Source: a virus. From it: a stretch of DNA of 64,000 nt. Positions 32,561-58,112 of this stretch are shown piece after piece. Position 1 is the stretch's first letter. Each line of letters starts with the position of its first letter. The stretch lies in the IMG/VR virus record IMGVR_UViG_3300017754_001832; one strand, 5' to 3'. The translations under genes were made by a program, and so were the position numbers. The notes below the pieces were generated by a model. That model was not told the origin of the DNA. It saw only the letters and a program-made list of their open reading frames with translations, and made no database searches.

Positions 32561-33439
32561 TCACCCGTATGTGTTGACTTGGCCGCCGACCGGATTCGCA
32601 ACAGGAATCCAAGGGCAGCCGCCGAAGTTGTGGATGTTCGAGTGCAGGGCCGTGCAGTGATCCATCTGGTGATTGCACCCGAGGGAGATGCGAACGGCCT
32701 GCGTGGTGAGCAACGTCGTCGGGCCCGTCATGTAGACCGTGTAGCCGTTCGACGACTCCGCCACCTCAAGCACGGTCCTGATCTCGACGTTGCCGGCCGG
32801 CGTCGTCCATTCGATGACACCGCCCTTGAAGTTCTCGATCATGCTCTCCGGTGCGAAGCCATCGGGCAGCCCAAGCTCCACGGCGTTCTCGACTACGGAG
32901 TTCGGGATCACGGTGAAGGTGGCCGCCGCCTTGTTCGCGTTGCACGCCTTCGGCCCGGTCGTGTAGAGCGTGTGCGTGCAGGTGAGTTGGAAGTTCCGGC
33001 GGAGCGCCACGCGCCGCAGCGAGGTCGCCAGAGGTTCGCACGTGAGCACGCACTGATGCGACCCATCGCCTTCGTGCTTGCCGTTGAGCACCCTGCCAAT
33101 CCAGATCGAGCGCCACTCGGTGTCCGCCTCGGACAGGTGGCCGCGCATGATGGTCATGGAGATCGGATACGACGGAGGATATGCGCGATAGAGTTGCGCG
33201 ATAGCCGCCGTCGTGGGCACGCGGAGTTCGAGGCTCTTGCGGTCGAGCGTGCCGCTCGCGCTGATCTTCCCGGCGGAGACCGGAATCGGTTCGTAGGTCA
33301 CGCCATCCTTGACGATGGCCTGCTCCGCGTCCGTGTAGCCGTACACCGAGAGAGTCCCGACACCATACCTGAAGAGGATCAGGTTGACGGGCATCCCGTG
33401 CTCGCGGCTCTCGTCATACTCGTCATAGGCGTTCGTCAT
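32561..33439 (-). CDS. DUF2163 / BR0599-type distal tail protein (GTA g13-like), 292 aa
   Basis: Internal ATG with ATGA overlap. C-terminal CNHQMDHCTALHSNIHNFGGCPWIP matches the conserved Cys/NFGG signature. Confidence 0.75.
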   Translation of the reverse strand: MTNAYDEYDESREHGMPVNLILFRYGVGTLSVYGYTDAEQAIVKDGVTYEPIPVSAGKISASGTLDRKSLELRVPTTAAIAQLYRAYPPSYPISMTIMRGHLSEADTEWRSIWIGRVLNGKHEGDGSHQCVLTCEPLATSLRRVALRRNFQLTCTHTLYTTGPKACNANKAAATFTVIPNSVVENAVELGLPDGFAPESMIENFKGGVIEWTTPAGNVEIRTVLEVAESSNGYTVYMTGPTTLLTTQAVRISLGCNHQMDHCTALHSNIHNFGGCPWIPVANPVGGQVNTYG

Positions 33440-35211
33440 CAGACGATCTCCGAGTTCGATTGGTCGTCGCCATCCTTGGCGACCCACGGTTGAGTTTGCA
33501 CAGTGAAGCTGACCTGGCAAACTTCATCCGTCAGGAACTCGAAGGTCGCCTGATCGGTGGCGAAGCGCCACAGCGTCACCCAGCAAATCTTGTCGATGTC
33601 TGCGAGGTCGATGTCCTGCCCAATCGTCTCGGTGAGTTGGATGGTGCTCTGCCCTTCTCCGGTCGAGTCGAGTTCGGCGAAGATGTCCGCGATCTGCTTG
33701 TAGACGATGGTGCCGTCGAGCAGGACAATCGCGATGCCGGCGCCATAGCGCACCGGGTCTTCGGCGTAGGTGCCCGCGAAGTCGACTCCGTCCACCACAA
33801 TGATGTCGTCGCCCGAGAGCATGTCCTGCGCGGCGTCGATGTCATACTCCCACGTCGGCATGTAGAACTCGCGGCACTGGCCGGCGCAACGGAAGAAGAA
33901 CTTCCGCAGCATCTCCGATTGCTCGAAGTCGCGGCCTGTGTAGTTGAGCACGAGACGGCGCTGCTGGAAGTCCTGATCCGCGATGCGGTCCACACGACCG
34001 ACATCGAAGTTGATGAAGATCGTCGGGTGGAAGTCCAGCGTCTCGGGCGGGTCGGCCCAATTCGGCTTCTCCAGCCACAGTTCCCGGTTGTCGAACGTGT
34101 AGAGCGGCGAGGATGTGGGCTCGATTGCCTGCGTGCCCGGCCGCACGAAGAAGTTCGGCGTGATCGTCTGCACCGTGTTGGTGAGCATGTTGCCGCCCGT
34201 CTCGTCGCCAATGAAGGCCGAGAGCGCGGGGAATATCTTGGTGCCGACGGGCCACTCGATCTCGTCGTCCGACTTGAAGAGGACCAGAGGCGCGCTGTTG
34301 GAGTCCTCGCTCTGCAAGTCGATGCGGCGCAGAGACCAATTCGTTCCATCGTAGAGGATGACGTAGGCGTTGGTCTCCGCCAGCCACCACGGGATGTCGC
34401 CGTCGATGTACGCCTCAAGACCGTTCGCCGGGATCACGGCGGAGGTCGTGACATAGCGCGTCATCTCAGGAACGAAGAACCGACCGCGCTGGTTGCCGGT
34501 CATCAGGCGTTGATACTCGCGACGCTCTGCGCGCTTGAGCGCGATCTCGAACTCCAGAGACATACGCGGCGTCTGGCGATACTGGATGCGCTGCTCGCGC
34601 CCGTTCGCCGAGGAGATGACCTCGGTGCGGAACTCGTATTGGATCGTGTAGGACGACGACCAATTAGGACGGTATTCCCAGACCTGATCGGTGAGCGTCG
34701 GCGTGCGGAAGCCCGTCACGTCGAGCGTCAGGATGTCGCCGAGGTTGAAGGCCAGTGTGAAGGAGTCGGACAGGACCGTCGATCCATCGCCAAGCGCCGT
34801 GAACGCGAGGGTTTGAATCTGCAAGGCACTGAGGTTCACAGGAACCGAGCCATCGTAGGAGACCTCGGTCCCGATAGCCGGCGTCACCGTGTTGAGCACG
34901 GCGTCATCGAAGTAGGCGTTCCACACCTGCACGTTGATCGTCGTGTCCGCAGCGAAGGTGCCGTAGGCCAGTTCGCTCGGGATCAGGTAGAAGCGGAAGT
35001 AGAAGTCATCGAACATCGTGAACTGGCGCGAGCCGGTGCGCGTCTCGCCGAGTTCCTGCACCATGAAGTAGTTCGTCCCTGGTCCGAGGACAGAGGACGC
35101 CGTGTCCTCGCCATGGATGCGGGCGCCGGATTGCACGCCGCCAGCGACGCCGGTTGCAGCATTGCCCGGCGTCGTGAAGGTCTCCATGAGAGGCTGGATC
35201 GAGCTAGCCAT
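33439..35211 (-). CDS. Distal tail / baseplate protein (590 aa)
   Basis: Position between the tape-measure-proximal genes and DUF2163. Contains EDSNSA. C-terminus reads DDQSNSEIV. Confidence 0.7.
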   Translation of the reverse strand: MASSIQPLMETFTTPGNAATGVAGGVQSGARIHGEDTASSVLGPGTNYFMVQELGETRTGSRQFTMFDDFYFRFYLIPSELAYGTFAADTTINVQVWNAYFDDAVLNTVTPAIGTEVSYDGSVPVNLSALQIQTLAFTALGDGSTVLSDSFTLAFNLGDILTLDVTGFRTPTLTDQVWEYRPNWSSSYTIQYEFRTEVISSANGREQRIQYRQTPRMSLEFEIALKRAERREYQRLMTGNQRGRFFVPEMTRYVTTSAVIPANGLEAYIDGDIPWWLAETNAYVILYDGTNWSLRRIDLQSEDSNSAPLVLFKSDDEIEWPVGTKIFPALSAFIGDETGGNMLTNTVQTITPNFFVRPGTQAIEPTSSPLYTFDNRELWLEKPNWADPPETLDFHPTIFINFDVGRVDRIADQDFQQRRLVLNYTGRDFEQSEMLRKFFFRCAGQCREFYMPTWEYDIDAAQDMLSGDDIIVVDGVDFAGTYAEDPVRYGAGIAIVLLDGTIVYKQIADIFAELDSTGEGQSTIQLTETIGQDIDLADIDKICWVTLWRFATDQATFEFLTDEVCQVSFTVQTQPWVAKDGDDQSNSEIV

Positions 35212-36281
35212 TACGCACCCGCAGAGTTCGAGTCTTCCTCACCAACAGCGTAGGCGTAGCCCACCCACAGCGAGGTCTCGAACTCTGGCGGGTTCGAGCC
35301 GCTGCCGGTCGACTCGGGCATCGTGACTTCGGAGCGGCGCGCGTGCGAGGGGAAGACCCGCCACAGCATACCGCCGACGATGATCTCTGCACCCGGCTGG
35401 AGGTCTTGCATGTGGACGTGGCGAACGCCGGCCGGGCGACCGATCGGTCGGAACTCCACATCGCCGACGATGGGGTCCGCGTTGTAGAGGTTGATCGGCG
35501 AGAGCGTGTTGAGGCTCGCGAACGGCGAGCGACCGCGTGCCAGATAACCATCGTTGATCGCGTCGTTGTAGCCGCCGATCACACCGTTCACCGGGAAGCT
35601 CAGCAGGGGCGTGCTGCTCGTCGCAGTCGAGCCCACGAAGAAGCGCCACGGGTAGGCGTTGTCCGCGTGATCCACATGCACGCCGCCACTCTCCGCCGCA
35701 GCCCTGCGGCTCTGACGGCCCGAGAAGAGGTACTTCATGTCGAGGTCGTAGTAGACTCGAGTCGAAGAGGAGTTGCCGGGTCCATCGGTGGCCGAGATGC
35801 ACTCGCCGCCCTGATAGTCGCCGACCTTCTCCATGTTGCCGATATACATGTGCCGGTAGAGGTTCGAGCCATACTCCACGATGATCGCGATGTAGGGCTC
35901 GGGGGTGAGCGCCCCGATCAGGTGGACTTGCGTCGGCAGAACGACGGCCGGCGATCCTGCACCGACGACCGGCGACGCGAAGATCGCGGAGCCCGCCTGC
36001 AATGCGGTCACAGCGGAGTTCGATTCGGAGTCGTACTGATACGCCGCACAGGTGAGGGTGTGCGTGCTGCCGGCCACCGAGGCGGTGACTTGGAACGGGA
36101 TCGCATCGCTCGCCTCGAAGGCCGAGTTCGATCCGGAGTTCGAGTCGCCGCCCTGCGGCCTGCGGAGGATCGGTTGCGTGGGAGTGGTGAGGTCCGTCTC
36201 CCATCCGATCAATGCTGCGAACGTGCCGACCAGAGCCGGCACGTCCGTAATCGCGCTGATGGAGTTTACTTGGTATGTCAC
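35211..36281 (-). CDS. Virion structural protein (356 aa), GTG start
   Basis: GTGA overlap. Contains GDSNSGSNSA and DSESNSA. C-terminus EEDSNSAGA. Architecture resembles the 36278..37342 product. Confidence 0.7.
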   Translation of the reverse strand: MTYQVNSISAITDVPALVGTFAALIGWETDLTTPTQPILRRPQGGDSNSGSNSAFEASDAIPFQVTASVAGSTHTLTCAAYQYDSESNSAVTALQAGSAIFASPVVGAGSPAVVLPTQVHLIGALTPEPYIAIIVEYGSNLYRHMYIGNMEKVGDYQGGECISATDGPGNSSSTRVYYDLDMKYLFSGRQSRRAAAESGGVHVDHADNAYPWRFFVGSTATSSTPLLSFPVNGVIGGYNDAINDGYLARGRSPFASLNTLSPINLYNADPIVGDVEFRPIGRPAGVRHVHMQDLQPGAEIIVGGMLWRVFPSHARRSEVTMPESTGSGSNPPEFETSLWVGYAYAVGEEDSNSAGA

Positions 36282-37342
36282 GAGTTGGACTCCTCGTTCG
36301 CGATGAATGCACTGTTACTATCTTCTGGCCCGCGTGTCACGGCGAACCAATTTCCAAGTGCGGTGCGGAAGGTGTTCTGGAAGACGATGTGGACGGAGTT
36401 CTCCGCCTGGATCACATTCTCGATTGTCTGGCCTCGGCCGGGCACGCGGTAGACGCCATCCAGCACGCCGAAGGTCTGGTCGCTCGGGCTGGCCTGCGTG
36501 AGCGTGAAAGGGGTGAGCGTGAAGCTATCGCCATACGCCACCTGCTCACGCTTGCTCACGTCCTCGTAGCCGTACTCGCCGCTGCCCGAGTTCGATTGCA
36601 CAGAGTTGAGGACCGCGCCGAGCCCGAGGCCAACGCCGAAGAACGCCGGGCCGATGCAGGCCGGCGCCGACGTGTCATTCTTCGAGACCTTCAGCCAGTT
36701 GCCAGAGGGATCGAGCATCCACGCGCTCGGCATGTAGCCGCTCGACCCGGTCGACGAGTTGCTGTTGGAGAAGCAGAAGGCGGAGTGATCGTCGGAGACC
36801 GAGGAGTGCGAGGTCGACTCCGAGGAGCCGCCCGATCCACACGAGCCGCCGATGAACATCGGATAGGTGTAGACCGTGGGGTCCGCGTAGGGGAGGAAGA
36901 AGCCGGCATACATCGTCTCGTAGACCGTGCCGACCTGGACAACGATGATGAAGCGACGACCGTTCGCGATGAACCAATAGCGCATCGTGTTCGGGCGCGT
37001 GAACATCTTGACCGGATACGGGGTCATGTTGACGTGCAGGTCGTAGCTGGCAGCCGACTCCACGATGCCCGTGCAGCCGCGCATGTACCACGTGCTCACA
37101 TCGCCAGCGACGTTCGAGTCATCGCGCTTCATCGCCACATAGACAGACGCATCTGCCGCGAGGCCGGGGCCACGCAGCACGACGCCGAGAGCGGCGTCTG
37201 CGGAGTCGCTGTTGGAGTCGGAACCCCATGCGATCTCCCAATTCTGTCCGAGGGCCACGAGTTCCGCGTCCGTCGTGATGAACGAGATGAACTTGTCCCA
37301 AAGATCGGCGTGATTGGTCGCCGTGCCTGTCTGGTAAGCCAT
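36278..37342 (-). CDS. Virion structural protein (354 aa)
   Basis: Contains SDSNSD, QSNSG, SNSNS and EDSNSA. C-terminus EESNS. Lies directly downstream of the tape measure gene. Confidence 0.7.
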   Translation of the reverse strand: MAYQTGTATNHADLWDKFISFITTDAELVALGQNWEIAWGSDSNSDSADAALGVVLRGPGLAADASVYVAMKRDDSNVAGDVSTWYMRGCTGIVESAASYDLHVNMTPYPVKMFTRPNTMRYWFIANGRRFIIVVQVGTVYETMYAGFFLPYADPTVYTYPMFIGGSCGSGGSSESTSHSSVSDDHSAFCFSNSNSSTGSSGYMPSAWMLDPSGNWLKVSKNDTSAPACIGPAFFGVGLGLGAVLNSVQSNSGSGEYGYEDVSKREQVAYGDSFTLTPFTLTQASPSDQTFGVLDGVYRVPGRGQTIENVIQAENSVHIVFQNTFRTALGNWFAVTRGPEDSNSAFIANEESNS

Positions 37343-40300: not shown

Positions 40301-42327
40301 CGGTCGATCTCGGTCGTGACCGTGTTGAGCGCAGCCGGCAGCGCACCACCAAAGCGGCGCGTCAGTTCGTCGGCGAACTTGAGCAGGGTCTCTTCAGACG
40401 CCGCGACCTCGCCGCGCCGGATCATCTTGTCCAGTTCGGCAGTCGAGACACCGAGGGCGTCAGCGAAGATGTTGAACGCGCCGGGCAGTCGGTCGCCCAA
40501 CTGCCTGCGAAGTTCTTCCATCGACACCGTGCCCTTCGACACGATCTGTTGCAGGGCGAGGAAGGTGCCTTCGAGTTCTTCGGTCGAGACCTTGTTGACG
40601 CGCGCTGCCTCGGCAACGGACGTGAAGATTTTCCGAGTCGACTCGGCAGAGAAGTTCGCCGCGTTCGTCGCGATGGCGAAGCGGCCATACTCCTGCGACA
40701 AGACCTGGAAGCTCAGACCGAGGCGATCCGCTTCCTGCGAGATGAAGCGAAGCTCCTCACGCACGCGGTTCTGGTTGCCGTCGAACACCGCCGTCAGTCG
40801 AGACTGCGCAGCCTCCACGGAGCGGAGGGCGTTGATGACGCCACCAATGGCCGTGATGCCGGCGTAGAAGCCGACGAAGGCCGTGGTGAGGCCGAGCACC
40901 TGTCCGCGAAGGCGCTGGAAGATCGAGAGCGCGCGACGGCTCTGGTCGGTCGATTGAGCGATGCCGCCTGCCGCCTGGCGTGCTGCCGGCCCGAGCGCGG
41001 TGAACGCACCAGCGAGAGACCGCACGTCCTGCCCGAGGATGCTCGCCACGAGGGAGAGCCTGCGCTGAGCGTTGACCTGTTGGTCGATAGCCAGCGCGGC
41101 AGACACGGCCTGCTGACGCGACTCCTGATCCGCCGCGATCTTGGCCCGCTCGGCTGCCGCCGCTTCCTTCAGCTTCACGCTGAGCGCGGAGAGTGCCTGA
41201 GTCTGGTTGCGCCATTCCTGCCCGGCGCCTTGCGCGTTGATCCGCGCCGCCAGAAGCTCGGCAGCAAGAGCCGCCGTCGGTTGTGCGGTCGCCGCCATCT
41301 CGGCCTTGAGGCGCTTCAGTTCGGCGCTGGCCTGCTGGAACGCGGCGCGAGCCTCGTTGACGGCTTGCTCCTGCGCACGGAAGGCGTTGACAGGCGCGTT
41401 CGCTGCGGCCCCCGCAGCCGTGGAGGCCCGCACGGCGGCCTGCTGGCGTGCCAGTGCGTCGGACACCTTCTGGATCGCCACGGCCACACGCGCGCTCTCT
41501 GCGGCGATAGCCTCCTGCTTCAGTTCCACCTGCCCGAGAGCGGCTGCTGCCGAAGTCGCGGAGGTCTTCACCTCGGCGAGCGCGGCCTGCGCCTGCTTTA
41601 CGGCAGCCGTTTCTTCCCCGGCCGCTGATGTCAGCTTCGCGAATTGATCCGTGACGCGCGCCAGATCGCGCTCGGCGAGTCGGGCTTGGCCCGAGAGCGA
41701 GGAGAACGCCTGCCCGGCGATCCGGACGTTGGCCTGCTGTTGCTGCACCACGGAGTTCTGGCGCGTCTGCGCCTCGATCAGGGCGACGAGCGAGTTGGCT
41801 TGTTGACGGACTGCGTCGCGTGCCTGATCGCTCGCGCCCTTCTGCGCGCGGAGAGCGACGACGAGTTGCTGGTAGCGATCCTTCGCCTTCTCGACCTCGG
41901 CATTGAGGGAGGCTTGCTCGCCGCGTGCGGATGCCAGATCGGCCTGCGAACGCTTCAGCGCGGCGCCGGCCTGCCGCGTGGCCGAGTCAAGCTCGGCGAA
42001 TTTGTCCGCCGTGGCTCCTGCGCGCTGGCCCGTCTCCAGAAGGCGCTGCTGCGTCTGCGCAAGCTCGACCTCCATGCGCTCCACGTTCTTCGTGGTGCGG
42101 TCGAAGTTGGAGGCCAGACGGTTGAGGCTCGTGAGCCCGGCCGCGTTGGCTTGCAGACTCTTCAGTTCGGAGGAGAGCTTGCCGAGGGCCGTGTTCGCGA
42201 TAGCGCCAGACTTGCTGAGCCCGCTCTGCGCCTTCGCCAGGTCGTTGATTGAACCAACGATTCCATCGACCGCAGCCTTCGCTTGGTCGCGCGCCTTGAT
42301 AATAAGCTCGACCTCACGCTTCGCCAT
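37342..42327 (-). CDS. Tail tape measure protein (1661 aa)
   Basis: Very long Ala/Gln/Glu/Leu-rich coiled coil with hydrophobic stretches. Lies after the G/GT chaperone pair. Confidence 0.9.
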   Translation of the reverse strand: MAKREVELIIKARDQAKAAVDGIVGSINDLAKAQSGLSKSGAIANTALGKLSSELKSLQANAAGLTSLNRLASNFDRTTKNVERMEVELAQTQQRLLETGQRAGATADKFAELDSATRQAGAALKRSQADLASARGEQASLNAEVEKAKDRYQQLVVALRAQKGASDQARDAVRQQANSLVALIEAQTRQNSVVQQQQANVRIAGQAFSSLSGQARLAERDLARVTDQFAKLTSAAGEETAAVKQAQAALAEVKTSATSAAAALGQVELKQEAIAAESARVAVAIQKVSDALARQQAAVRASTAAGAAANAPVNAFRAQEQAVNEARAAFQQASAELKRLKAEMAATAQPTAALAAELLAARINAQGAGQEWRNQTQALSALSVKLKEAAAAERAKIAADQESRQQAVSAALAIDQQVNAQRRLSLVASILGQDVRSLAGAFTALGPAARQAAGGIAQSTDQSRRALSIFQRLRGQVLGLTTAFVGFYAGITAIGGVINALRSVEAAQSRLTAVFDGNQNRVREELRFISQEADRLGLSFQVLSQEYGRFAIATNAANFSAESTRKIFTSVAEAARVNKVSTEELEGTFLALQQIVSKGTVSMEELRRQLGDRLPGAFNIFADALGVSTAELDKMIRRGEVAASEETLLKFADELTRRFGGALPAALNTVTTEIDRFSNNLLQAQQKVAEGGFADALQESLKQLNEGFKSREGRDFFLQLGALLGNAVKAITEVVKVASALKPVFAGLIALKVAKFFTEFTAGLRANAAATAFTTKEVLALTAAERAQVVTMVSAQNAVAGFNLAVRVAAASALTMGRALIFSGTASKTFAAASAAAGIALRSLATAAITAIRALGPLALAFTAVSLLGGMFFDMATKVDGATTALDEHTRQLDSYTAETNEAERAGRAFNATLVATDALRARKNLDDLANEYVKLRDESRKAAFDVVADFARMNSGVVGEEAAQKLGALASKFIQGKLTISEFQAEVRKVSDTLDGPAANAIQGFASSLIGVTDKASEVEQAMGRQAIITKQLGDSTIDIDRTIARLGLSYDTTTGSIKRTTDALAEQRRVADQAAAALSEVESFLPEIAKQRERDAKRQKLSDAGGKSLLGIQDPAEVKRRLELIAAARAQLEKEFAAEDAKAAKRDKPPRDPQKEFNDELQRSIDLRRFEATLVGKSLRDQEIEKAIFAAKQKAQEDGLKFTQTQEDALRASVGALFDATEAERVHNSVLEQQAELRKLLGEETTVQQEVERLAIQQNIDLLSKEGQAWAAVTSQIIERERAEKKLKDAVEDVRALERQRQEALEEFNKLSEGGALSAEETQGRTAALEEMRVKILAAKEEALALARALGDEKAIAALTRVNVELSEQQIKLLEIKQQVRDAFGSGAVDAILAAGAAIGKGIDEGERWEKVFRNIRDAALQFGADFLLKIAEMIAQQAVLNALQNTPIGGLLDGVASGVASLNPAATAAAATISASLTTAGVTAATSVTTAGTTTAVGITTAGTTAGAALTATGLSLAAAITTAGAAAAAAIAAAAAASAVAGIAHGGGIAGAGLQKRTVPASLFRNAGRFHNGGLPGLRKNEVAAILQKGEEVVTENNPRHIKNAGIGGGGGDKRPVINNFVDAADFIQAGLNSPVGQQAFMNYIRDNKTAVNGALS

Positions 42328-42772
42328 AGCGGTTGCCCTTCGAGACGTTTTCCAGCGCCGGAAGGTACTGGAGGTTGTTCAAAACATGCAGCCCCGAGAC
42401 GTTTTTCCCACGCAACGGGACAATGTGATCTACGTGATACCCCAAAGGACAGGCTTCGTAAAATCGCTCTATGGCTTTTAGATCGGCCCACGCGGGGGTC
42501 TGCTGAGACAAGCACGCACGGCGCTTGGCTTCCTTGGCGTTTTTCTTTCCGGGGTTGTTCCTCGCCCATGCGGCGATGGCGGCCCGATCCTTGGCTTTTT
42601 GTTCTTCGGATCGAGCCGCTTTAGACGCACGGACGCGGTCGGGGTGTCGCTGCCTGTATCGTTTGGCAGCCTCTCGTTTAGCCTCCGGGTTGCGGGCGGC
42701 CCAACCGTCTGCGGGGTTGCGCCGTTTCCACTCGCGTTGGGCCGCCCGCTGTTTGCTGATGTCGCGCGCCAT
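42314..42772 (-). CDS. HNH endonuclease (152 aa)
   Basis: HVDHIVPLRGKNVSGLHVLNNLQYLPALENVSKGN. Basic repeat-rich N-terminus. Wedged between the chaperone and tape measure genes. Confidence 0.8.
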   Translation of the reverse strand: MARDISKQRAAQREWKRRNPADGWAARNPEAKREAAKRYRQRHPDRVRASKAARSEEQKAKDRAAIAAWARNNPGKKNAKEAKRRACLSQQTPAWADLKAIERFYEACPLGYHVDHIVPLRGKNVSGLHVLNNLQYLPALENVSKGNRYGEA

Positions 42773-43179
42773 TAGCCTAGGATGTCTTGGTCTGAGCGTC
42801 TTTTGACGGGAGGAGGCAGGCGCGGATCGCGGCGTCCCTTGGTCGGGATGATCGCGGGCTTCGCGGTCTGCGTCTTCGTCTCCGCCGGCTCTTGCCCCTT
42901 CGATCCTCCACCGAGGTCGTTGAGCATTTTCTGAAAGCCCTTGGCGCCCTTCTTATCCATCACGGAGATGATCGCGCCCTGAGTCAGGACGGCGTTCGTG
43001 ATGAGTGCATCGTTGATGCGCTTCGTCAGGCGAGCCGCCTCTTGCCATACGGCGTAGAGGGGCCACCTGTCCGCGTCAGGGAAGCCGTGGGCCTTCAGGA
43101 GGCCGACTGTATTCCAGACACCATCGAGCCAGACGCGGAGGTTCGCAGGGCGCTCACGAGACCGTTGACGCCCCCGAAC
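42772..43179 (-). CDS. T-like extension frame of the tail assembly chaperone, reached by a -1 frameshift
   Basis: The -1 frame is open across the G stop and reads ...NLRVWLDGVWNTVGLLKAHGFPDADRWPLYAVWQEAARLTKRIN...DQDILG. The candidate slip region TTCGGGGGC (43171-43179) is not a canonical heptamer. Confidence 0.55.
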   Translation of the reverse strand, partial: VRGRQRSRERPANLRVWLDGVWNTVGLLKAHGFPDADRWPLYAVWQEAARLTKRINDALITNAVLTQGAIISVMDKKGAKGFQKMLNDLGGGSKGQEPAETKTQTAKPAIIPTKGRRDPRLPPPVKRRSDQDILG

Positions 43180-43664
43180 AGGCTGGTCACGGTCTCGATC
43201 AACTCCCCCACACCGCCATGATCCTCCAGCGTCAGCCGGGCGACCTCTTGGATGATCTTGAGTTGGACAGGGACCGGGAGGCGCTTCGCCACCTCGAACG
43301 CCTTGGTCTGGTCTGCGTCGTCGGTGACGAGCACAACCATGTCGGCGATGAGGTCGGGGAACTGCTCGACGAGTTGCAGGAGGATCGGGCCGAGATCGAG
43401 CGCGCTCTCCTCGACCGTGGTCGGGTCAACACCCTTGGCTACCGCAGCGTCGTGGATCAGCGTGTCGGCGTGAACCTTGTTGGCGATGGTGCGCTCGAAG
43501 ATCATCACCATGGTCGGGCCGTGGACCCGCATGAGTTTGACGAGGTCGCCTGCGGACAGGCCGCGCACTTGGATGTTCTGCTCGGGCTTGTCGCCCTTGG
43601 CCTTGCGGATGGTGATCTCGGCGGTTTCAAAGCCGATGGACGAAAGCTGACTGACGGACTTCAT
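43095..43664 (-). CDS. Tail assembly chaperone (gpG-like), 189 aa
   Basis: Internal ATG after AGAAGAGGG (MKSVSQLSSIGFE...). Position between the major tail and tape measure genes. Confidence 0.7.
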   Translation of the reverse strand: MKSVSQLSSIGFETAEITIRKAKGDKPEQNIQVRGLSAGDLVKLMRVHGPTMVMIFERTIANKVHADTLIHDAAVAKGVDPTTVEESALDLGPILLQLVEQFPDLIADMVVLVTDDADQTKAFEVAKRLPVPVQLKIIQEVARLTLEDHGGVGELIETVTSLFGGVNGLVSALRTSASGSMVSGIQSAS

Positions 43665-43748
43665 ATTTACCCTCTTCTGAAACGAGCCGGGGCCCGTAGC
43701 ATCTTGTGCCACGGGCCCCGGAAGATTGCAACCCAACTTCTACCTGTC

Positions 43749-44588
43749 TTAGGCGTAGGCGGGTCGGCCAAGGGCGTAGATCGCCGCGTAGCTGGTGGGC
43801 TTCAGGATTTCGACCTGGAACGGGATGACGTTCCACTCGTCCGACTTCAGCGCGTAGTCTCCGTTCGGGGAGACCTTGATCCACGGGAAGAAGTAGTCGA
43901 TGTCGTCGCCGACCGGGTTGAAGGCGATGAACTGCATCGCGCCTTCGACCGGCTCCGAACCCGAGAGGATGCGGTTGTAGGTCGAGGGACGGATCGTGTA
44001 CGTGACCTGAAGGTCCGTGCCGTCCGCGATGCCACCGCCAACGATGACGTACAGGCGGCCCGTCTCCGGATCGACCGTGTAGTCCGTGCCGTAGACGAAC
44101 TCCGTGTTGCCCGCCGAGTTCGAGTCGTTCTCGACAACCGTGAAGGCGCCGCCCGAGTTCGAGTCGGTGTCGCCACCGGCCACGAGGCCCTTCGCGCCGG
44201 CAGGGCGCGTGGTCGAGATGCCAAGCTGGTAGTAGAGGCCCTGCTCGACATCGTTGACTTCTTCGGCGGTGATCGTCGCACCAGCTTCCGTCACGACTTC
44301 TTCCTCGCCGAAGAAGAAGATGGCGACGTTCTTGATGTCGATGTTGTCGGTCGTGAAGGTGCCCGAGCGGTTGACCTGGAGAGCAATGCTCTCGTCCTTC
44401 TCGCGGATGCCGTGATCCGAGTTGAAGTGGTCGAGAACCTCTTGCTCGATGGTGAGCGAGAACTCCGGTGTGTTCCCGATATACCGGAAACCCTTTGGGG
44501 TTTGGGTGCCCGTGACAAAGCGGGCGAAACTGATTTCGCCACGACCCAGCGTGTAGTTGTTAGTGACAATGCCTTCGGTGGCGGCCAT
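43749..44588 (-). CDS. Major tail (tube) protein, gpV position (279 aa)
   Basis: Internal ATG after AGGAG (MAATEGIVTNNY...). Lambda-order synteny. Contains TDSNSG and NDSNSA. Confidence 0.75.
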   Translation of the reverse strand: MAATEGIVTNNYTLGRGEISFARFVTGTQTPKGFRYIGNTPEFSLTIEQEVLDHFNSDHGIREKDESIALQVNRSGTFTTDNIDIKNVAIFFFGEEEVVTEAGATITAEEVNDVEQGLYYQLGISTTRPAGAKGLVAGGDTDSNSGGAFTVVENDSNSAGNTEFVYGTDYTVDPETGRLYVIVGGGIADGTDLQVTYTIRPSTYNRILSGSEPVEGAMQFIAFNPVGDDIDYFFPWIKVSPNGDYALKSDEWNVIPFQVEILKPTSYAAIYALGRPAYA

Positions 44589-44665
44589 GGTGGTATCTCC
44601 TGCTGGCGGTGGTCCGTGTTCCTTACGTGTTACAGCCTCGCTGGCGTTGAAAGTCAACGCCTCAC

Positions 44666-45220
44666 TTAGCTGTACGGATTCTCCAAGTCCTCGGCGATCT
44701 TCAGCCGTATCGCGAGCCAGAAGTACGCCTTGCCCGAGACTTCATCCGGAGGGCGGCAGACCGGGCTCCCGATCTGCATTGAGATGACCCCCGGCTTACC
44801 ATTGGCCCCGCGAACACTCAACAGGGCAGGCCCAACGCCGGCCGGCGAGCGGCCCTGATCCAGCCGCTTCTTCTCTTTCGCGAGGCAGCGGCACACGTCG
44901 GCCACCAGAAGGTAGGCCGGATCGGTGGGGTTCGCCTTGTCGTCTTTGCAGAACCCCTGGATCGAGATGTCCCAATCGCCGGTCGAGTAGGGGGAGGATG
45001 CCGCAGAGTCGACCTGATCGTTGGCGATAGGCGTCTCCAGAATGGCGATCATCGGCAGGGGGTCGTTCTCCCCGTAGATGTTGCGGCCACGGAAGACGCG
45101 GCCCGCCAGATCGTGGTGGTAGCCGGTCGGCCCCGAGTTGGAATCCTCGATAGCGATGGTCTCCAGAAGCTCAGTGAGCTTGCGCATGACGCGGAGGCGG
45201 AAGGGGTAGGTCTCGGTCAT
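44666..45220 (-). CDS. Tail terminator, gpU position (184 aa)
   Basis: Synteny. Contains IEDSNSG. Confidence 0.6.
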   Translation of the reverse strand: MTETYPFRLRVMRKLTELLETIAIEDSNSGPTGYHHDLAGRVFRGRNIYGENDPLPMIAILETPIANDQVDSAASSPYSTGDWDISIQGFCKDDKANPTDPAYLLVADVCRCLAKEKKRLDQGRSPAGVGPALLSVRGANGKPGVISMQIGSPVCRPPDEVSGKAYFWLAIRLKIAEDLENPYS

Positions 45221-45819
45221 CAGACGTTCTCCAGCCCGAGTTGTCTCAGGTATTCGGTTTCGAGCGCGTTGGCGATCTCGTCTTCCATGTCGGGCCAGAT
45301 GCCCTTGCGCCCGCTCGCGCCGATCAGGGCTTGTGCGACCGAAGGACCATAGAGGAGCCAGAGGCTCTTAGCCAGCCGGCGCGGTCTGTAGGCCCCCGAG
45401 GGCTTGCCCGGTGAGCGCACGGCCAGCATCGTCGACTCTCCGCCCGCCTTGCCTACGCCAAGCAGGAACGCGCCCGGCAGGGCTCGCTGGCCTCCGGGTT
45501 GGACCTCGACTTTGATCTTGCCCTTCTTCGCGTTCGTGTTGGTCACGAAGCGTGCGAGGCCCGTAGGCCGCGACGCGGCGGTGAGCTTGCCTTCGAGCTT
45601 CCCGGCGCCCGCTGAGAACTGCTCGATCTTGCCGTCCTGCCCCGTGAGGTAGCGGGCAGGAAAGGCCACCTGCTGCCGCAGCATGCGGCCCGAGCGGGCC
45701 CGTGCGTCACGCAGGGTGCGGTTGATCGCACGCTGTGCGGCGATCTGCGACTTCTTCGGGATGTCTTCGAGATCGCGGAGAGACTTGATGCCGAGGATCG
45801 TCACGGAGAGGTTGGACAT
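45220..45819 (-). CDS. Minor tail / tail completion protein, gpZ-like (199 aa)
   Basis: N-terminus SVTILGIKSLRDLEDIPKKSQIAAQRAINRT resembles the gpZ family. Synteny also fits. Confidence 0.65.
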   Translation of the reverse strand: MSNLSVTILGIKSLRDLEDIPKKSQIAAQRAINRTLRDARARSGRMLRQQVAFPARYLTGQDGKIEQFSAGAGKLEGKLTAASRPTGLARFVTNTNAKKGKIKVEVQPGGQRALPGAFLLGVGKAGGESTMLAVRSPGKPSGAYRPRRLAKSLWLLYGPSVAQALIGASGRKGIWPDMEDEIANALETEYLRQLGLENV

Positions 45820-46260
45820 TTACTCCTCCGGAGGAAGAGGCAGCCCGGCCGAGTCTGCGGAATCCTGGCGCGTGACGCGAGCCGTGATCGTTTCCTGATC
45901 GTGCGGCTCGACCACGTCGATGTAGTACGACTCGCCACTCGTGACGGAGATCACATCGCCGCGCGCCGGGCTGATGCCCGCGTCTTCGAGTTCGGTGCGC
46001 CAGAAGATAACCCTCGGGACCGAGTCGAACCGCTCTGCGCTGTTGAGTGATGTGCCGGCTTGATCGCCGAGCTTCATGCCCTTCTCGTGGATGCGAACTT
46101 CCACGACGGGCAGGCCGTGCATGTTGCCAGAGGTCGAGCCCGAGAACGACGTGCTGTTGGAGTCGTTCTCGGGTGATCCGCCGACGAGATAGACGGCGCG
46201 GACCTTCAAAGTCTGGTGGACCGTTTCGCGGGCCGCCCGTTTGATGTCGCGCCATCCCAT
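45820..46260 (-). CDS. Head-tail connector, gpFII position (146 aa)
   Basis: Synteny. Contains ENDSNST. Confidence 0.55.
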   Translation of the reverse strand: MGWRDIKRAARETVHQTLKVRAVYLVGGSPENDSNSTSFSGSTSGNMHGLPVVEVRIHEKGMKLGDQAGTSLNSAERFDSVPRVIFWRTELEDAGISPARGDVISVTSGESYYIDVVEPHDQETITARVTRQDSADSAGLPLPPEE

Positions 46261-46261
46261 C

Positions 46262-46657
46262 TCAGTCTACCTTCTTCGCTGCCCCATTGAGGCCGGCGCC
46301 GAGGTCGGTCAAGTCGCGACGACGGCGGGTGGTTGTGGTCTTCTGTTCTGCTGCGGCCTTGGCGTCTGCGCGAACCTTGTCCGCTGCTTCCTTCATGGCC
46401 TTCTTCACCGCGACCTTTTCCGCGAGGCCGGGGGTCTCGGCGTCGAGACGCATACGGCGGGTCTTCGGATTGACGCGGGGGAGTTTAGCGAGAAATTCCT
46501 TCGCCTCTTTCGAGTCTGCCATTGCGGCGAAACCCTGCGCGAGGAGCGACTCGGCTTCCTTGTCCACGATGTCGGCGATCTCTCCGCCGTAGAACTTCGT
46601 GGGTCCGTCTTTGCCCACCTCGGTCGAGGTGGTGCCAACGAATAGTGCGATCTGCAT
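46262..46657 (-). CDS. Hypothetical head-associated protein, gpFI position (131 aa)
   Basis: Synteny. Strong RBS within the shared 17-mer CAGCACTAGAGGGAACT. Confidence 0.55.
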   Translation of the reverse strand: MQIALFVGTTSTEVGKDGPTKFYGGEIADIVDKEAESLLAQGFAAMADSKEAKEFLAKLPRVNPKTRRMRLDAETPGLAEKVAVKKAMKEAADKVRADAKAAAEQKTTTTRRRRDLTDLGAGLNGAAKKVD

Positions 46658-46730
46658 GTAGTTCCCTCTAGTGCTGATGGACTAAGGGGGCGGCCCGAGA
46701 GCCACCCCCTGTCCGGTTGACCAACTCGGG

Positions 46731-47801
46731 TTAGGAGTTGGAGTCTTCTTCCACGACCCGAGCATGGAAGCTGCGGTTCGGGAACGGCGAGATGGCGAGC
46801 GGCGCCGACTGCGTCATGATGTTCATCGCGGACGGGTCTTGCTCGACCCACATCTTCGTGAACACCGGCTGAGCGATCAGGTTCTCGATCTCCAGGATCG
46901 CGCCGTAGGCCGACACGCCACCGTAATCGGCAGCCGTGATGACCAGGTCACGCGGGTTCATGATGTCCACGTGGTTGCCGCTGTTGTCCTCGTAGAAGTC
47001 CTCGTAGAGGACCAGCGTGAGGCCCGGCAGCGAGCCGACCACGGTCCACGGAGCATCCGGCGTGCGCGCTTGGATCAGCGAACGCGCGATGGAGTTGCCC
47101 TCGCCGCCACGGACGTTGGTGTCCATGAGTTCGAGCAGCTTCGTGTTCGAGCGCATGACGCGCCAGACTTCACGACCCATCGTGACAACCGAGCCGCGTC
47201 CGCCGAAGTCAGCGTTCGCCATCGCGTCGGTGTATTCCTGGAGTTGCGCCACGATGTCCGTGGTGGAGTCCCAGAGGCCGGTCGTCTTGATGTCCGTGAG
47301 CGCGGTGTCGCGGCCATAGTCAACTTCGACGGTCGGGCCGTCCTGATACTCGACCAGCACCTTGCCGTAGGTCACGGCTTGGAAAGCCATGATCTCCTGG
47401 CGCCGCTCGATGATCTTGCGGTGATGCTCAAGGATCGCGGCGATCTCCGCGTCGCGGTTCTGAGCCGGCGAGCGAGGCGAGTCGTCGTAGAGGTTGCCGG
47501 GGCGGCGCGTGAACTGCTCGCCGGGGATCACCGGGTCTTTCAGCTTGATATAGGCCGGGCTGAAGGACGCGGCGGTCGAGCCACGGCGCCGGTAGGACGG
47601 GCGGCCGGGGTTCTGCGGCAGAGAGAACGTCGCGACCTCGCGGTTGCCGACGATCTTTTCCCAGATGATCGCTTGCTTGTCCGACTGGAAGATGTTGGAC
47701 GAGAAGCCGCCGAGATTCCGCCAGTAGTTGCTGACGGTTTCGAGGCGCTGGTCGCGGAATACGCCCAGCAGCGCACGGGGGGAGAGAACTTCGAGAGACA
47801 T
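46731..47801 (-). CDS. Major capsid protein, lambda gpE family (356 aa)
   Basis: Size, position after the decoration protein and general gpE-like sequence. C-terminus VVEEDSNS. A hairpin follows the gene. Confidence 0.8.
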   Translation of the reverse strand: MSLEVLSPRALLGVFRDQRLETVSNYWRNLGGFSSNIFQSDKQAIIWEKIVGNREVATFSLPQNPGRPSYRRRGSTAASFSPAYIKLKDPVIPGEQFTRRPGNLYDDSPRSPAQNRDAEIAAILEHHRKIIERRQEIMAFQAVTYGKVLVEYQDGPTVEVDYGRDTALTDIKTTGLWDSTTDIVAQLQEYTDAMANADFGGRGSVVTMGREVWRVMRSNTKLLELMDTNVRGGEGNSIARSLIQARTPDAPWTVVGSLPGLTLVLYEDFYEDNSGNHVDIMNPRDLVITAADYGGVSAYGAILEIENLIAQPVFTKMWVEQDPSAMNIMTQSAPLAISPFPNRSFHARVVEEDSNS

Positions 47802-47840: not shown

Positions 47841-48290
47841 TTAGGACGGGGTGCCGGGGGTTGCGGTTGCGATCTGATCGACGCCGAGGGGCGTGCGGTC
47901 GAGAGCGCGGCGGAGGAGGGCGAGAGACCACGAAGCATCTTTCGCGATGACATCGTAGTTGAAGACGCCGTCCGTGTAGTAGGACACGTCCGTCACGTCG
48001 GCGCCGACTTCCGAGTTGGAGTCGCTGCCGCCCGAGTTGGAGTCATCGACCGCCACGACGGCGGAGGTGATGCCAACCGGCTCTTGCGAGCCGTCGGTGG
48101 CCGTCTGGACGGACGGAACGATCAGGCCCGTGCCGGTGACGCGGCCAACGAGCGTGTTGACGGGGATGTCAACAGTCGTCTTGCCACGGCCAACCATGGT
48201 GGGGGCCTTGAACCACAGACCGTTCGTCTGCGTGAAGGTGTCCGAGCTTTGAACCGGGACGCCGGGCGGGTTTGAAGTGAGGGCGGTCAT
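47841..48290 (-). CDS. Head decoration protein, gpD-like (149 aa)
   Basis: Position between the protease and the capsid gene. Contains DDSNSGGSDSNSE. Confidence 0.7.
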   Translation of the reverse strand: MTALTSNPPGVPVQSSDTFTQTNGLWFKAPTMVGRGKTTVDIPVNTLVGRVTGTGLIVPSVQTATDGSQEPVGITSAVVAVDDSNSGGSDSNSEVGADVTDVSYYTDGVFNYDVIAKDASWSLALLRRALDRTPLGVDQIATATPGTPS

Positions 48291-58077: not shown

Positions 58078-58112
58078 GTCAGTTCCCTCTAGTGCTGCCT
58101 TATAGCGCGGCC

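What the first reader, a model, noticed from the sequence alone, without database searches (positions are those of the whole stretch)
33439..47801. Four structural proteins end in acidic (D/E/Q)-S-N-S tails
The C-termini are:
- ...VVEEDSNS (major capsid, stop at 46731)
- ...IANEESNS (stop at 36278)
- ...GEEDSNSAGA (stop at 35211)
- ...GDDQSNSEIV (stop at 33439)

Four unrelated proteins share a terminal tag of the same type. This looks like an appended recognition peptide rather than part of a fold. It parallels the reported glycosylation of C-terminal extensions on mycobacteriophage capsid and tail proteins. That parallel is from memory and concerns different chemistry and hosts.
Basis: partly seen in the sequence, partly recalled or inferred. 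Interest (0 to 1): 0.6.

Follow-up and report, generated by a model that had tools for sequence, protein, structure and literature searches.

The report
Conserved DSNS tag on phage virion proteins
An uncultured group of tailed phages carries the four-residue peptide Asp-Ser-Asn-Ser on loops and tail ends of nearly every outward-facing virion protein, and only these phages carry an inserted block of sugar-transferase genes, so the peptide is probably a built-in tag for coating the virus with sugars.

Summary
All four C-terminal tails are real, but they are a small part of a larger pattern. D-S-N-S is the commonest tetrapeptide in the window's proteome: 19 copies against 0.15 expected, and 21 [D/E]SNS in 12 proteins. 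All 12 are virion or fibre-associated proteins. Serine codons vary between TCN and AGY, so the signal is at the peptide level.

The trait is all-or-none across relatives. One monophyletic clade of metagenomic siphophages has 4-18 motifs per ~20 kb locus, and about 75 related loci have 0-1. The motif is invariant while its flanks vary freely. It sits in hypervariable loops or in 5-20-residue C-terminal extensions that motif-free homologues lack.

Best reading: DSNS is a portable sequon for phage-encoded virion glycosylation. This is inferred, not shown chemically. The association rests on a single evolutionary gain, and no known sequon matches.

The parts
47841..48290 (-). Head decoration protein (149 aa). 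Two DSNS in one loop: motifs at 48033-48044 and 48012-48023.
   Evidence: phrog_49 head decoration. Motifs. Orthologues in the clade carry 1-2 copies.
46731..47801 (-). Major capsid protein (356 aa, lambda gpE-like). Appended C-terminal EEDSNS tail, motif at 46734-46745.
   Evidence: phrog_29. Motif-free homologues end at ...RARVVA*, and 10 of 11 clade orthologues carry the DSNS tail. Codons vary at this orthologous site.
45820..46260 (-). 146-aa head-tail protein. One DSNS at 46153-46164.
   Evidence: phrog_4858. Motif. 7 of 10 orthologues carry one copy.
44666..45220 (-). Tail terminator (184 aa). One DSNS at 45134-45145.
   Evidence: phrog_5078. 9 of 10 orthologues carry one copy.
43749..44588 (-). 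Major tail tube protein (279 aa from the ATG used in public gene calls). Two DSNS at 44154-44165 and 44115-44126, in a hypervariable loop.
   Evidence: phrog_807. Homologous to YSD1_22, PDB 6xgr, E=9e-76. 39 of 120 homologues have 1-3 DSNS in this loop and 81 have none. The loop is coil and has the lowest pLDDT in the model.
36278..37342 (-). 354-aa distal tail/structural protein. DSNS at 37208-37219 and 36311-36322, and a C-terminal ESNS at 36281-36292. Three further SNS lack the acidic residue.
   Evidence: phrog_687. Motifs. The C-terminal extension is absent from motif-free homologues.
35211..36281 (-). 356-aa structural protein, a distant paralogue of the previous one. DSNS at 36135-36146, ESNS at 36015-36026, and a C-terminal EEDSNSAGA at 35223-35234.
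   Evidence: phrog_687. Motifs. Tail comparison.
33439..35211 (-). 590-aa tail protein. Internal DSNS at 34294-34305 and a C-terminal DDQSNSEIV at 33451-33462.
   Evidence: phrog_1082. Motifs. Motif-free homologues end about 15 residues earlier.
28884..29807 (-). 307-aa tail fibre protein (DUF2793). Four DSNS at 29607-29618, 29406-29417, 29286-29297 and 29085-29096.
   Evidence: PF10983 and phrog_7049. Orthologues carry 5-7 copies.
27562..28884 (-). 440-aa fibre-like protein. One DSNS at 28675-28686 and three further SNS.
   Evidence: Motifs. Orthologues carry 1-3 copies.
26526..26747 (-). 73-aa protein downstream of DUF115-1. One DSNS at 26553-26564.
   Evidence: Motifs. Homologues in L014, L017 and L018.
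14820..15158 (+). 112-aa protein. This is the only DSNS (14919-14930) outside the minus-strand structural module. It is followed by a 486-aa fibre-like ORF at 15158-16618.
   Evidence: Its homologue in L015 lies directly after the DUF115-1 gene and also carries DSNS.
26834..27562 (-). DUF115-1: a 242-aa Maf-like / sialyltransferase-like glycosyltransferase core (GGGPSL motif), directly downstream of the fibre genes.
   Evidence: - PF01973 E=1.2e-5, below the curated cut-off.
- phrog_4603 E=7.5e-33.
- Model pLDDT 95.8.
- Also present in the motif-free sister clade.
57364..58080 (-). Cassette gene 1: GT8-like GT-A glycosyltransferase (238 aa) with an invariant D-C-D.
   Evidence: - phrog_28018 E=3e-58.
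- Glyco_transf_8 E=0.004, sub-threshold.
- WbbM E=0.25.
- Homologues are annotated as nucleotide-diphospho-sugar transferase or galT-like in other phages.
- Invariant D81 C82 D83.
56828..57370 (-). Cassette gene 2: SAM-dependent methyltransferase (about 180 aa).
   Evidence: Methyltransf_23. phrog_24759.
56262..56831 (-). Cassette gene 3: SAM-dependent methyltransferase (about 189 aa).
   Evidence: Methyltransf_23 E=1.7e-14. phrog_24759 E=1.7e-24.
55645..56265 (-). Cassette gene 4: DUF115-2, a 206-aa paralogue of DUF115-1.
   Evidence: phrog_4603 E=3.5e-13. BLASTP against DUF115-1 gives E=4e-12 with the G-P-S and G-x-D positions aligned.
54885..55658 (-). Cassette gene 5: 'GT-e', a 257-aa putative GT-A glycosyltransferase with an invariant D-x-D (D98, D100).
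   Evidence: phrog_1962 glycosyltransferase E=0.003. Alignment A2. The only PDB profile hit is weak: Skp1 alpha-galactosyltransferase 6mw5, E=0.67. The homologue in 'Tetraselmis viridis virus S20' is annotated as a glycosyltransferase.

Best explanation
DSNS, more fully [E/D]-D-S-N-S-[A/G/T], is a short portable recognition peptide (a sequon).

**Proposed mechanism**
- This phage clade has placed the peptide on flexible surface loops and appended C-terminal tails of its outward-facing virion proteins. These are the capsid, decoration, head-tail, terminator, tube, distal tail and fibre proteins.
- Late in infection, soluble phage-encoded enzymes would recognise the peptide in the cytoplasm and build a small, probably methylated glycan on it.
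- The candidate enzymes are the cassette between the helicase and small-terminase genes (GT8-like transferase, one or two methyltransferases, Maf-like DUF115-2, GT-e) and the Maf-like DUF115-1 next to the fibre genes.
- The most likely attachment is O-linkage to one of the two serines. A CMP-activated ulosonic acid (pseudaminic or legionaminic acid, or Kdo) from the host is a candidate sugar.
- The assembled particle would then carry hundreds to thousands of glycans.

**Shown**
- The motif's enrichment, its peptide-level conservation, and its location in loops and extensions.
- Its restriction to one clade and to a fixed subset of virion proteins.
- Co-inheritance with the cassette.
- The Maf-like fold of DUF115-1.

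**Inferred**
- That the motif is modified at all, that the modification is a glycan, which enzyme reads the motif, which residue is the acceptor, which sugars are used, and what the coat does.
For: **The motif is real and selected**
- 131-fold enrichment, and 21 copies against at most 5 in shuffles.
- Codons vary while the peptide is fixed. This includes TCN/AGY serine switches at the orthologous capsid tail.
- Across 158 non-redundant clade sites: DSNS 123, against DTNS 1, DSNT 4, DSDS 0 and ESNS 6.

**Placement fits an accessible tag**
- Tail-tube motifs lie in a hypervariable insertion that is coil with the lowest pLDDT.
- The capsid, 354-aa, 356-aa and 590-aa proteins carry them on extensions absent from motif-free homologues.

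**A fixed subset of proteins carries it across the clade**
- Present: decoration, capsid, 146-aa protein, terminator, tube, distal tail and fibres.
- Absent from portal, gpW, protease, large terminase, tape measure, chaperone and the enzymes themselves; one small-terminase orthologue carries a single copy.

**The trait is all-or-none and monophyletic**
- In the tube-anchored IMG/VR scan, 7 loci carry 7-14 motifs and 73 loci carry 0-1.
- It forms a single clade in a tree built with the loop masked.

**Synteny**
- In 7 distinct motif-bearing genomes the five-gene cassette, or the visible part of it next to the small terminase, lies between the SNF2 helicase and the small terminase.
- In 14 motif-free loci the helicase gene abuts the small-terminase gene within about 100-500 bp, and no cassette gene is found.

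**Enzyme identity**
- DUF115-2 is its paralogue.
- Mafs are cytoplasmic protein sialyltransferases acting on serine and threonine (bioRxiv 10.1101/2023.12.03.569772). They can also use CMP-Kdo and CMP-Neu5Ac (PMC11339370).

**Context**
- Similar gene sets (DUF115, GT and methyltransferase) sit inside or next to virion modules in unrelated phages: CcrColossus gp126-131 and 'Tetraselmis viridis virus S20'.
- Precedent: phage-encoded glycosylation of mycobacteriophage capsids (Freeman 2023, as summarised in PMC11256854).
Against: - There is no chemical evidence of any modification.
- The motif-cassette link rests on one evolutionary gain in one clade, so it could be hitch-hiking.
- Homologous enzymes occur elsewhere without any DSNS enrichment:
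  - CcrColossus
  - S20
  - Pseudomonas phage 5399
  - more distant GT-e-bearing contigs
  - the motif-free sister clade, which keeps a DUF115-1 orthologue
- Canonical Mafs have no defined sequon and need a TPR domain or the GlfM adaptor to bind their substrate (PMC11339370; bioRxiv 10.1101/2023.12.03.569772).
- The family assignments of the GT8-like and GT-e proteins are sub-threshold.
- No nucleotide-sugar synthesis gene was recognised in the window.
- DSNS fits no known sequon.
Confidence: 0.6

Rival explanations
1. DSNS is a sequon for a covalent modification other than glycosylation. Candidates are serine phosphorylation, asparagine or serine methylation by the two cassette methyltransferases, ADP-ribosylation, or an Asn-based cross-link or succinimide.
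For: - The evidence for a selected, accessible, clade-specific peptide does not say what the chemistry is.
- Two SAM-dependent methyltransferases belong to the clade-specific cassette.
- Asn-Ser is a chemically reactive dipeptide (general knowledge).
Against: - Three or four of the clade-specific genes look like glycosyltransferases.
- No kinase, ADP-ribosyltransferase or transglutaminase was recognised.
- The same methyltransferase family travels with GT genes in other phages, as expected for sugar methylation.
- A cross-link is implausible for a motif that forms the very last residues of a protein and sits on a dozen different proteins.
Confidence: 0.12
2. DSNS is not modified. It acts non-covalently: as a binding site for ions, host surface polysaccharide or flagella, or as a docking peptide for an accessory protein. 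The cassette then has another target, such as the host envelope or phage DNA.
For: - The motif sits on the exposed proteins that would touch the environment or the host.
- Homologous cassettes in other phages are not accompanied by DSNS.
- Relatives of the tail tube belong to flagellotropic phages such as YSD1.
Against: - Four fully invariant residues, intolerant even of Ser to Thr, on flexible loops and free C-termini would be unusual for a low-affinity surface contact.
- The same peptide on capsid, connector, tube and fibres argues against a single docking partner.
- The cassette enzymes are soluble and lie at the head of the late structural operon.
- No base-hydroxymethylase for DNA glycosylation was recognised.
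Confidence: 0.15
3. The pattern is compositional, a DNA-level repeat, or a chance or annotation artefact.
For: Low-complexity DSNSDSNS tandem repeats exist in unrelated low-GC viral contigs.
Against: - 131-fold enrichment, and shuffles never exceed 5 against 21 observed.
- Six different serine codons are used.
- The copies are dispersed as single copies over 12 genes, not arranged in tandem.
- They are conserved at orthologous positions across genomes with only about 50% protein identity.
Confidence: 0.01

Closest known systems
Virion glycosylation in mycobacteriophages (Che8 and Rita; Freeman et al. 2023, as summarised in PMC11256854 and PMC13313380)
   Same: - Phage-encoded glycosyltransferases and methyltransferases.
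- Capsid proteins as targets, and tail-tube proteins as recalled from memory.
- C-terminal extensions as attachment regions (from memory).
- A glycan coat over the particle.
   Different: - Here the hosts are probably Proteobacteria, and the enzymes are Maf-like plus GT-A-like rather than (as far as I know) homologues of the Che8 enzymes.
- The target would be one strict tetrapeptide, present on about a dozen virion proteins and mostly in internal loops.
- Nothing here has been shown chemically.
Maf (DUF115 / MAF_flag10) flagellin nonulosonic-acid O-glycosyltransferases
   Same: - A G-G-P-S nucleotide-binding motif and conserved aspartates.
- A cytoplasmic enzyme acting on a surface-structure subunit before assembly.
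   Different: - The phage proteins are bare 206-242-aa catalytic cores with no TPR domain or recognisable GlfM partner.
- Mafs act on flagellin only and have no defined sequon (PMC11339370).
- Here a four-residue peptide would replace domain-level substrate recognition.
Chlorovirus PBCV-1 capsid protein Vp54 glycosylation (PMC5408694)
   Same: Virus-encoded, cytoplasmic, stepwise glycosylation of a capsid protein at sites outside the N-X-S/T sequon.
   Different: - A eukaryotic giant virus with N-linked glucose on asparagine.
- Essentially one protein is targeted.
- No short invariant tag is shared among many structural proteins.
Sequon-directed bacterial glycosylation (PglB, D/E-X-N-X-S/T)
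   Same: A short, portable acceptor peptide with an acidic residue two positions before an asparagine.
   Different: - The +2 Ser/Thr requirement is not met, and the motif can end the protein at +1.
- PglB is a periplasmic membrane oligosaccharyltransferase, whereas virion proteins are cytoplasmic and no such enzyme is encoded.
DUF115, GT and methyltransferase gene sets in Caulobacter phage CcrColossus (gp126, 129-131) and 'Tetraselmis viridis virus S20'
   Same: Homologous enzymes at 27-47% identity, clustered inside or beside virion structural modules.
   Different: Those phages show no DSNS enrichment, nor any other enriched tetrapeptide that I could see. Their targets are unknown.

Membership tests
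Phage virion glycosylation system (mycobacteriophage Che8 type) | The phage encodes its own glycosyltransferases, often with methyltransferases. | tested here: met
   - DUF115-2 is its paralogue.
- There are two Methyltransf_23 proteins.
- The GT8-like and GT-e assignments are only sub-threshold.
Phage virion glycosylation system (mycobacteriophage Che8 type) | Glycans are covalently attached to capsid and tail subunits. | not testable with these tools
   This needs mass spectrometry or glycan staining of virions or co-expressed proteins.
Phage virion glycosylation system (mycobacteriophage Che8 type) | The attachment region is an extension appended to the structural fold. | tested here: met
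   C-terminal extensions and loop insertions carrying the motif are absent from motif-free homologues. That they are the attachment sites is inferred.
Phage virion glycosylation system (mycobacteriophage Che8 type) | The enzymes are homologous to the Che8 glycosyltransferases. | not tested
   The Che8 paper was not held. No comparison with Che8 proteins was made.
Maf / DUF115 (PF01973) protein nonulosonic-acid glycosyltransferases | DUF115 catalytic domain with a sialyltransferase-like fold. | tested here: met
   - In my own scan the Pfam PF01973 score was 25.6 bits, below the 34.6-bit cut-off.
- The database's precomputed annotation lists PF01973.
Maf / DUF115 (PF01973) protein nonulosonic-acid glycosyltransferases | Conserved nucleotide-binding G-x-G-P-S motif and a catalytic aspartate. 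| tested here: met
   G57-G58-G59-P60-S61-L62, D95 and D173 are invariant or nearly so in 50 homologues, and they align in DUF115-2. Equivalence to the catalytic Asp of Shewanella Maf-1/2 (bioRxiv 10.1101/2023.12.03.569772) is inferred, not mapped.
Maf / DUF115 (PF01973) protein nonulosonic-acid glycosyltransferases | A substrate-binding module: a C-terminal TPR domain or the GlfM adaptor. | tested here: not met
   The proteins are 242 and 206 aa, the catalytic core only. No TPR was found by Pfam. GlfM was not specifically searched for.
Maf / DUF115 (PF01973) protein nonulosonic-acid glycosyltransferases | The acceptor is flagellin and the donor is CMP-Pse or CMP-Leg. | not testable with these tools
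   The window has no flagellin. The donor is unknown, and no nonulosonate synthesis genes were recognised.
PglB-type N-glycosylation sequon D/E-X-N-X-S/T | Ser or Thr at +2 from the asparagine. | tested here: not met
   The position after the second serine is A 44, G 23, T 16, D 13, P 11... of 158 sites. In several proteins the motif ends the chain at +1.
PglB-type N-glycosylation sequon D/E-X-N-X-S/T | An acidic residue at -2 from the asparagine. | tested here: met
   Asp in 116 and Glu in 6 of 158 sites.
N-X-S/T sequon (eukaryotic OST, bacterial NGT) | Asn followed by any residue and then Ser or Thr. | tested here: not met
   Same counts as above.
Glycosyltransferase family 8 (for the 57364-58080 product) | A match to Glyco_transf_8 and a DxD motif. 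| tested here: inconclusive
   - PF01501 E=0.0038, 17.3 bits against a 24.3-bit cut-off.
- WbbM GT8 domain E=0.25.
- An invariant D-C-D is present.
- No structure model was made.

The most novel reading that the evidence does not exclude
DSNS is a minimal four-residue sequon read directly by a stripped-down Maf-like (or GT8-like) cytoplasmic glycosyltransferase. One small phage enzyme set could then O-glycosylate any protein that displays the tag on a loop or terminus, possibly with a sialic-acid-like sugar. This would be the first defined short sequon for Maf-type protein glycosylation and a ready-made cytoplasmic glyco-tag.
Probability: 0.3. Interest if true: 0.85.

Novelty: new variant of a known kind. 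Interest (0 to 1): 0.72.

Why it matters
**What is new.** Virion glycosylation by phage-encoded enzymes is so far documented only for actinobacteriophages. Flagellin-type (Maf) glycosyltransferases are thought to lack a sequon. Two full-text literature searches for DSNS found nothing relevant.

**If the inference holds, this clade would show three things.**
- Environmental phages of probably Gram-negative hosts also sugar-coat their particles.
- A phage can retarget a dozen unrelated structural proteins by sprinkling one tetrapeptide on their exposed loops and ends.
- A four-residue tag suffices for cytoplasmic protein glycosylation, which would be directly useful for glyco-engineering.

**It is easy to test.** The cassette is about 3.2 kb, and any DSNS-tagged reporter should work as a substrate.

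**Practical use now.** The motif gives a simple sequence signature for predicting which virion proteins, and which of their loops, face outward.

Tried and rejected
1. **DNA repeat, restriction site or methylation site.** Rejected because codons vary.
2. **Near-identical cultured phage.** None found. The best isolate matches are 38% for the capsid and 50% for the tube.
3. **Independent confirmation in other phages with homologous enzymes.** All tests were negative, so DSNS is specific to this clade and not to the enzyme families in general:
   - 'Tetraselmis viridis virus S20'
   - CcrColossus
   - Pseudomonas phage 5399
   - distant GT-e-bearing contigs
4. **DUF115-1 as the motif-specific enzyme.** Weakened, because the motif-free sister clade has an orthologue at the same position.
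5. **Other lineages with dispersed DSNS.** A degenerate DNA pattern scan of IMG/VR found only this clade plus unrelated low-complexity tandem repeats.
6. **Host identification.** The representative-genome scan returned only motif-free relatives in Alpha- and Betaproteobacteria. No tRNA genes were found.
7. **PDB sequence and profile searches for GT-e and the GT8-like protein.** Only sub-threshold hits.
8. **Literature.** Nothing on a DSNS sequon. The Freeman 2023 paper was not held.
9. **Small-terminase homologue search to reach the sister clade's junction.** It did not return sister-clade proteins. Only the last 90 residues of a different 285-aa gene upstream of its small terminase could be read.

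Full report
**1. Checking the observation**

They are part of a much larger pattern.

- A six-frame scan shows [D/E]-S-N-S repeatedly in the minus-strand structural module between 26.5 and 48.3 kb.
- With a curated gene list of 67 proteins and 18,063 residues, DSNS is the most frequent tetrapeptide of the proteome. There are 19 copies against 0.145 expected.
- [DE]SNS occurs 21 times, against a mean of 0.33 and a maximum of 5 in 5,000 within-protein shuffles.
- Twelve proteins carry it:

| Protein | Copies of [DE]SNS |
|---|---|
| Head decoration protein | 2 |
| Major capsid protein | 1 |
| 146-aa head-tail protein | 1 |
| Tail terminator | 1 |
| Tail tube | 2 |
| 354-aa structural protein | 3 |
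| 356-aa structural protein | 3 |
| 590-aa tail protein | 1, plus the QSNS tail |
| 307-aa DUF2793 fibre | 4 |
| 440-aa fibre-like protein | 1 |
| 73-aa protein | 1 |
| 112-aa plus-strand protein next to a fibre-like ORF | 1 |

- The serine codons are TCC, TCG, TCT, TCA, AGC and AGT. The signal is therefore in the peptide, not the DNA.

**2. What kind of genome this is**

- The window is most of a siphophage genome of about 68 kb at 63% GC. It has a lambda-gpE-type capsid, a decoration protein, an S49 protease, a gpA-type terminase and a Chi/YSD1-type tail tube.
- No cultured phage is close. There is no megablast hit, and the best protein matches are 38% for the capsid and 50% for the tube.
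- The same phage occurs in JGI sample 3300022407 and in Logan assemblies.

**3. The motif in relatives**

- Of the 120 best tail-tube homologues, 39 have one to three DSNS and 81 have none.
- In the alignment the motifs sit in a hypervariable insertion between two conserved blocks. The four residues are fixed while the neighbours change freely, for example GDTDSNSGGA, LTEDSNSDGV and PYNDSNSITP. Motif-free proteins have a shorter loop.
- With that loop masked, the motif-bearing tubes form one monophyletic clade. Its sister clade lacks the motif.
- In an AlphaFold model the loop is coil and is the least confident part of the protein.
- Around the tube gene in IMG/VR, 7 loci carry 7-14 motifs and 73 carry 0-1. 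Other motif-bearing loci carry up to 18.
- Across 158 non-redundant SNS sites in the clade, Asp precedes in 116. The position before that is Glu or Asp in 80. The position after is mostly Ala, Gly or Thr.
- Near variants are almost unused: DSNS 123, DTNS 1, DSNT 4, DSDS 0, ESNS 6.
- The same set of proteins carries the motif in every genome. Portal, gpW, protease, large terminase, tape measure, chaperone, the BR0599-like protein and all the enzymes never do, and the small terminase does in only one orthologue.

**4. The C-terminal tails are appended**

- Motif-free capsid proteins all stop at the conserved ...RARVVA. Motif-bearing ones continue ...RARVVEEDSNS(xx).
- The 354-aa, 356-aa and 590-aa proteins likewise carry 5-20 extra residues with one or two motifs.
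- At the orthologous capsid tail the codons differ between genomes (TCC, TCG, AGC and others) while the peptide stays the same.

**5. Candidate enzymes**

*DUF115-1*
- Directly after the fibre genes lies a 242-aa protein, DUF115-1. It has a GGGPSL motif and matches PF01973 below threshold and phrog_4603 'alpha-2,3-sialyltransferase' at E=7.5e-33.
- With 50 homologues it models at pLDDT 95.8.

*The cassette*
- Between the SNF2 helicase and the small terminase lie five translationally coupled genes:
  - a GT8-like GT-A protein with an invariant D-C-D
  - two SAM-dependent methyltransferases
  - a DUF115 paralogue (E=4e-12 against DUF115-1)
  - a 257-aa protein with an invariant D-x-D and a weak match to a phage glycosyltransferase family

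*Background on Mafs*
- Mafs are cytoplasmic protein sialyltransferases for serine and threonine (bioRxiv 10.1101/2023.12.03.569772). They can also transfer Kdo or Neu5Ac (PMC11339370).

**6. Association between motif and cassette**

- In seven distinct motif-bearing genomes the cassette, or the visible part of it next to the small terminase, lies at this position. These are the window, four long IMG/VR contigs, an NCBI metagenome contig and a Logan contig.
- In 14 motif-free loci the helicase gene abuts the small-terminase gene within about 100-500 bp, and no cassette gene is found.
- The motif-free sister clade keeps an orthologue of DUF115-1 after its fibre genes. It has a different 285-aa gene upstream of its small terminase. 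The motif therefore tracks the cassette, not DUF115-1.
- This is one evolutionary gain, so statistically it counts as a single event.

**7. Tests that could have generalised the link, and did not**

- Homologous gene sets (DUF115, GT and methyltransferase) lie next to virion genes in Caulobacter phage CcrColossus and 'Tetraselmis viridis virus S20'. Neither shows DSNS enrichment.
- Pseudomonas phage 5399 does not either, nor do contigs with distant GT-e homologues.
- A pattern scan of IMG/VR for paired DSNS found the dispersed, multi-gene pattern only in this clade. Other hits were low-complexity tandem repeats in low-GC contigs.

**8. Interpretation**

- The best-supported reading is that DSNS is a portable sequon. 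It is displayed on accessible loops and tails of outward-facing virion proteins, and the clade-specific enzymes recognise it and glycosylate the particle before or during assembly.
- O-linkage to a serine by a Maf-like enzyme is the most economical guess. N-linkage cannot be excluded, because chlorovirus capsids carry N-glycans outside N-X-S/T (PMC5408694).
- DSNS fits none of the known sequons. PglB's D/E-X-N-X-S/T fails at +2, and the motif can end the chain at +1.
- Canonical Mafs have no sequon and need a TPR domain or GlfM to bind flagellin (PMC11339370; bioRxiv 10.1101/2023.12.03.569772). The phage proteins are bare catalytic cores. This is compatible with the tag replacing domain-level recognition, but it is equally a reason for caution.
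- Rivals are a different covalent modification, a non-covalent role with the cassette acting on something else, and artefact. The last is excluded.

**9. Novelty and verdict**

- Phage virion glycosylation is known in mycobacteriophages (Freeman 2023, via PMC11256854 and PMC13313380).
- I found no precedent for a strict four-residue tag spread over a dozen virion proteins, together with a Maf-like/GT-A/methyltransferase cassette, in phages related to those of Proteobacteria. I rate it a new variant of a known kind.
- Confidence that the motif is a real, selected feature of exposed virion proteins is about 0.95.
- Confidence that it is a glycosylation sequon served by the cassette is about 0.6.

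Noticed in passing
window 50541-50543 (minus strand): The portal gene is interrupted by an in-frame TAG. The 99.986%-identical Logan contig (L116) has CAG (Gln) there and an uninterrupted 569-aa portal. This is an amber variant, a sequencing error or a polymorphism.
   Followed up: partly
window 54337-54909 (minus strand): An HNH/endonuclease VII-like gene (phrog_3322, E=6e-33) sits between the last cassette gene and the small terminase in this phage. It has no tblastn match in any other locus searched, so it looks like a recent insertion.
   Followed up: partly
window 42314-42772 (minus strand): A 152-aa ORF lies upstream of the tape-measure gene. Its sequence looks HNH-like (...[25 protein letters not shown]...). 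No Pfam family is on record for the identical gene in L116.
   Followed up: no
L119, L120, L124 (sister clade of the motif-bearing phages): The closest motif-free relatives keep an orthologue of DUF115-1 (37-39% identity) after their fibre genes. Upstream of the small terminase they have a different 285-aa gene whose C-terminus (NSLVDAVMNGVPIYAG) is reminiscent of GT-B glycosyltransferases. They may modify virions in a different, sequon-less way.
   Followed up: partly
L015 9113-9221: One motif-bearing phage has a 694-aa fibre protein with four tandem 9-residue repeats, GGFDSNSNS. The motif has been amplified within a fibre.
   Followed up: no
P0018 / L017 (IMGVR 3300031991_000011): In one clade member the tail-tube motifs have degenerated (PDTSNS, DRDNSN), while its other virion proteins keep 12 [DE]SNS copies and it keeps DUF115-1 and GT-e.
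   Followed up: partly
window 14820-16618 (plus strand): A DSNS-bearing 112-aa ORF and a 486-aa Ser/Thr/Asn/Gly-rich fibre-like ORF lie in the early-gene arm on the opposite strand from the structural module. The 112-aa protein's homologue in L015 lies in the fibre module. This may be a displaced or second fibre cassette.
   Followed up: partly
L148, L150, L177, L203, L204 and others (low-GC IMG/VR contigs, including giant-virus MAGs): These contigs contain long tandem low-complexity repeats encoding DSNSDSNS... or NADSNSNADS... within single ORFs. They are unrelated to the dispersed motif studied here.
   Followed up: no
P0070, P0072, P0083, P0085, P0102; L112, L113: About 380-aa variants of the same tail-tube family carry a C-terminal extension of about 100 residues, as in YSD1_22 (381 aa). 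None of the five listed has a DSNS motif.
   Followed up: no
window 17903-18436, 23623-24291, 24410-25000 (plus strand): The early arm encodes a MazG-like pyrophosphohydrolase and an MT-A70 family methyltransferase, and has a sub-threshold match to HD-domain/YfbR-like 5'-deoxynucleotidases (E=2e-4). Most other early genes have no family match.
   Followed up: no
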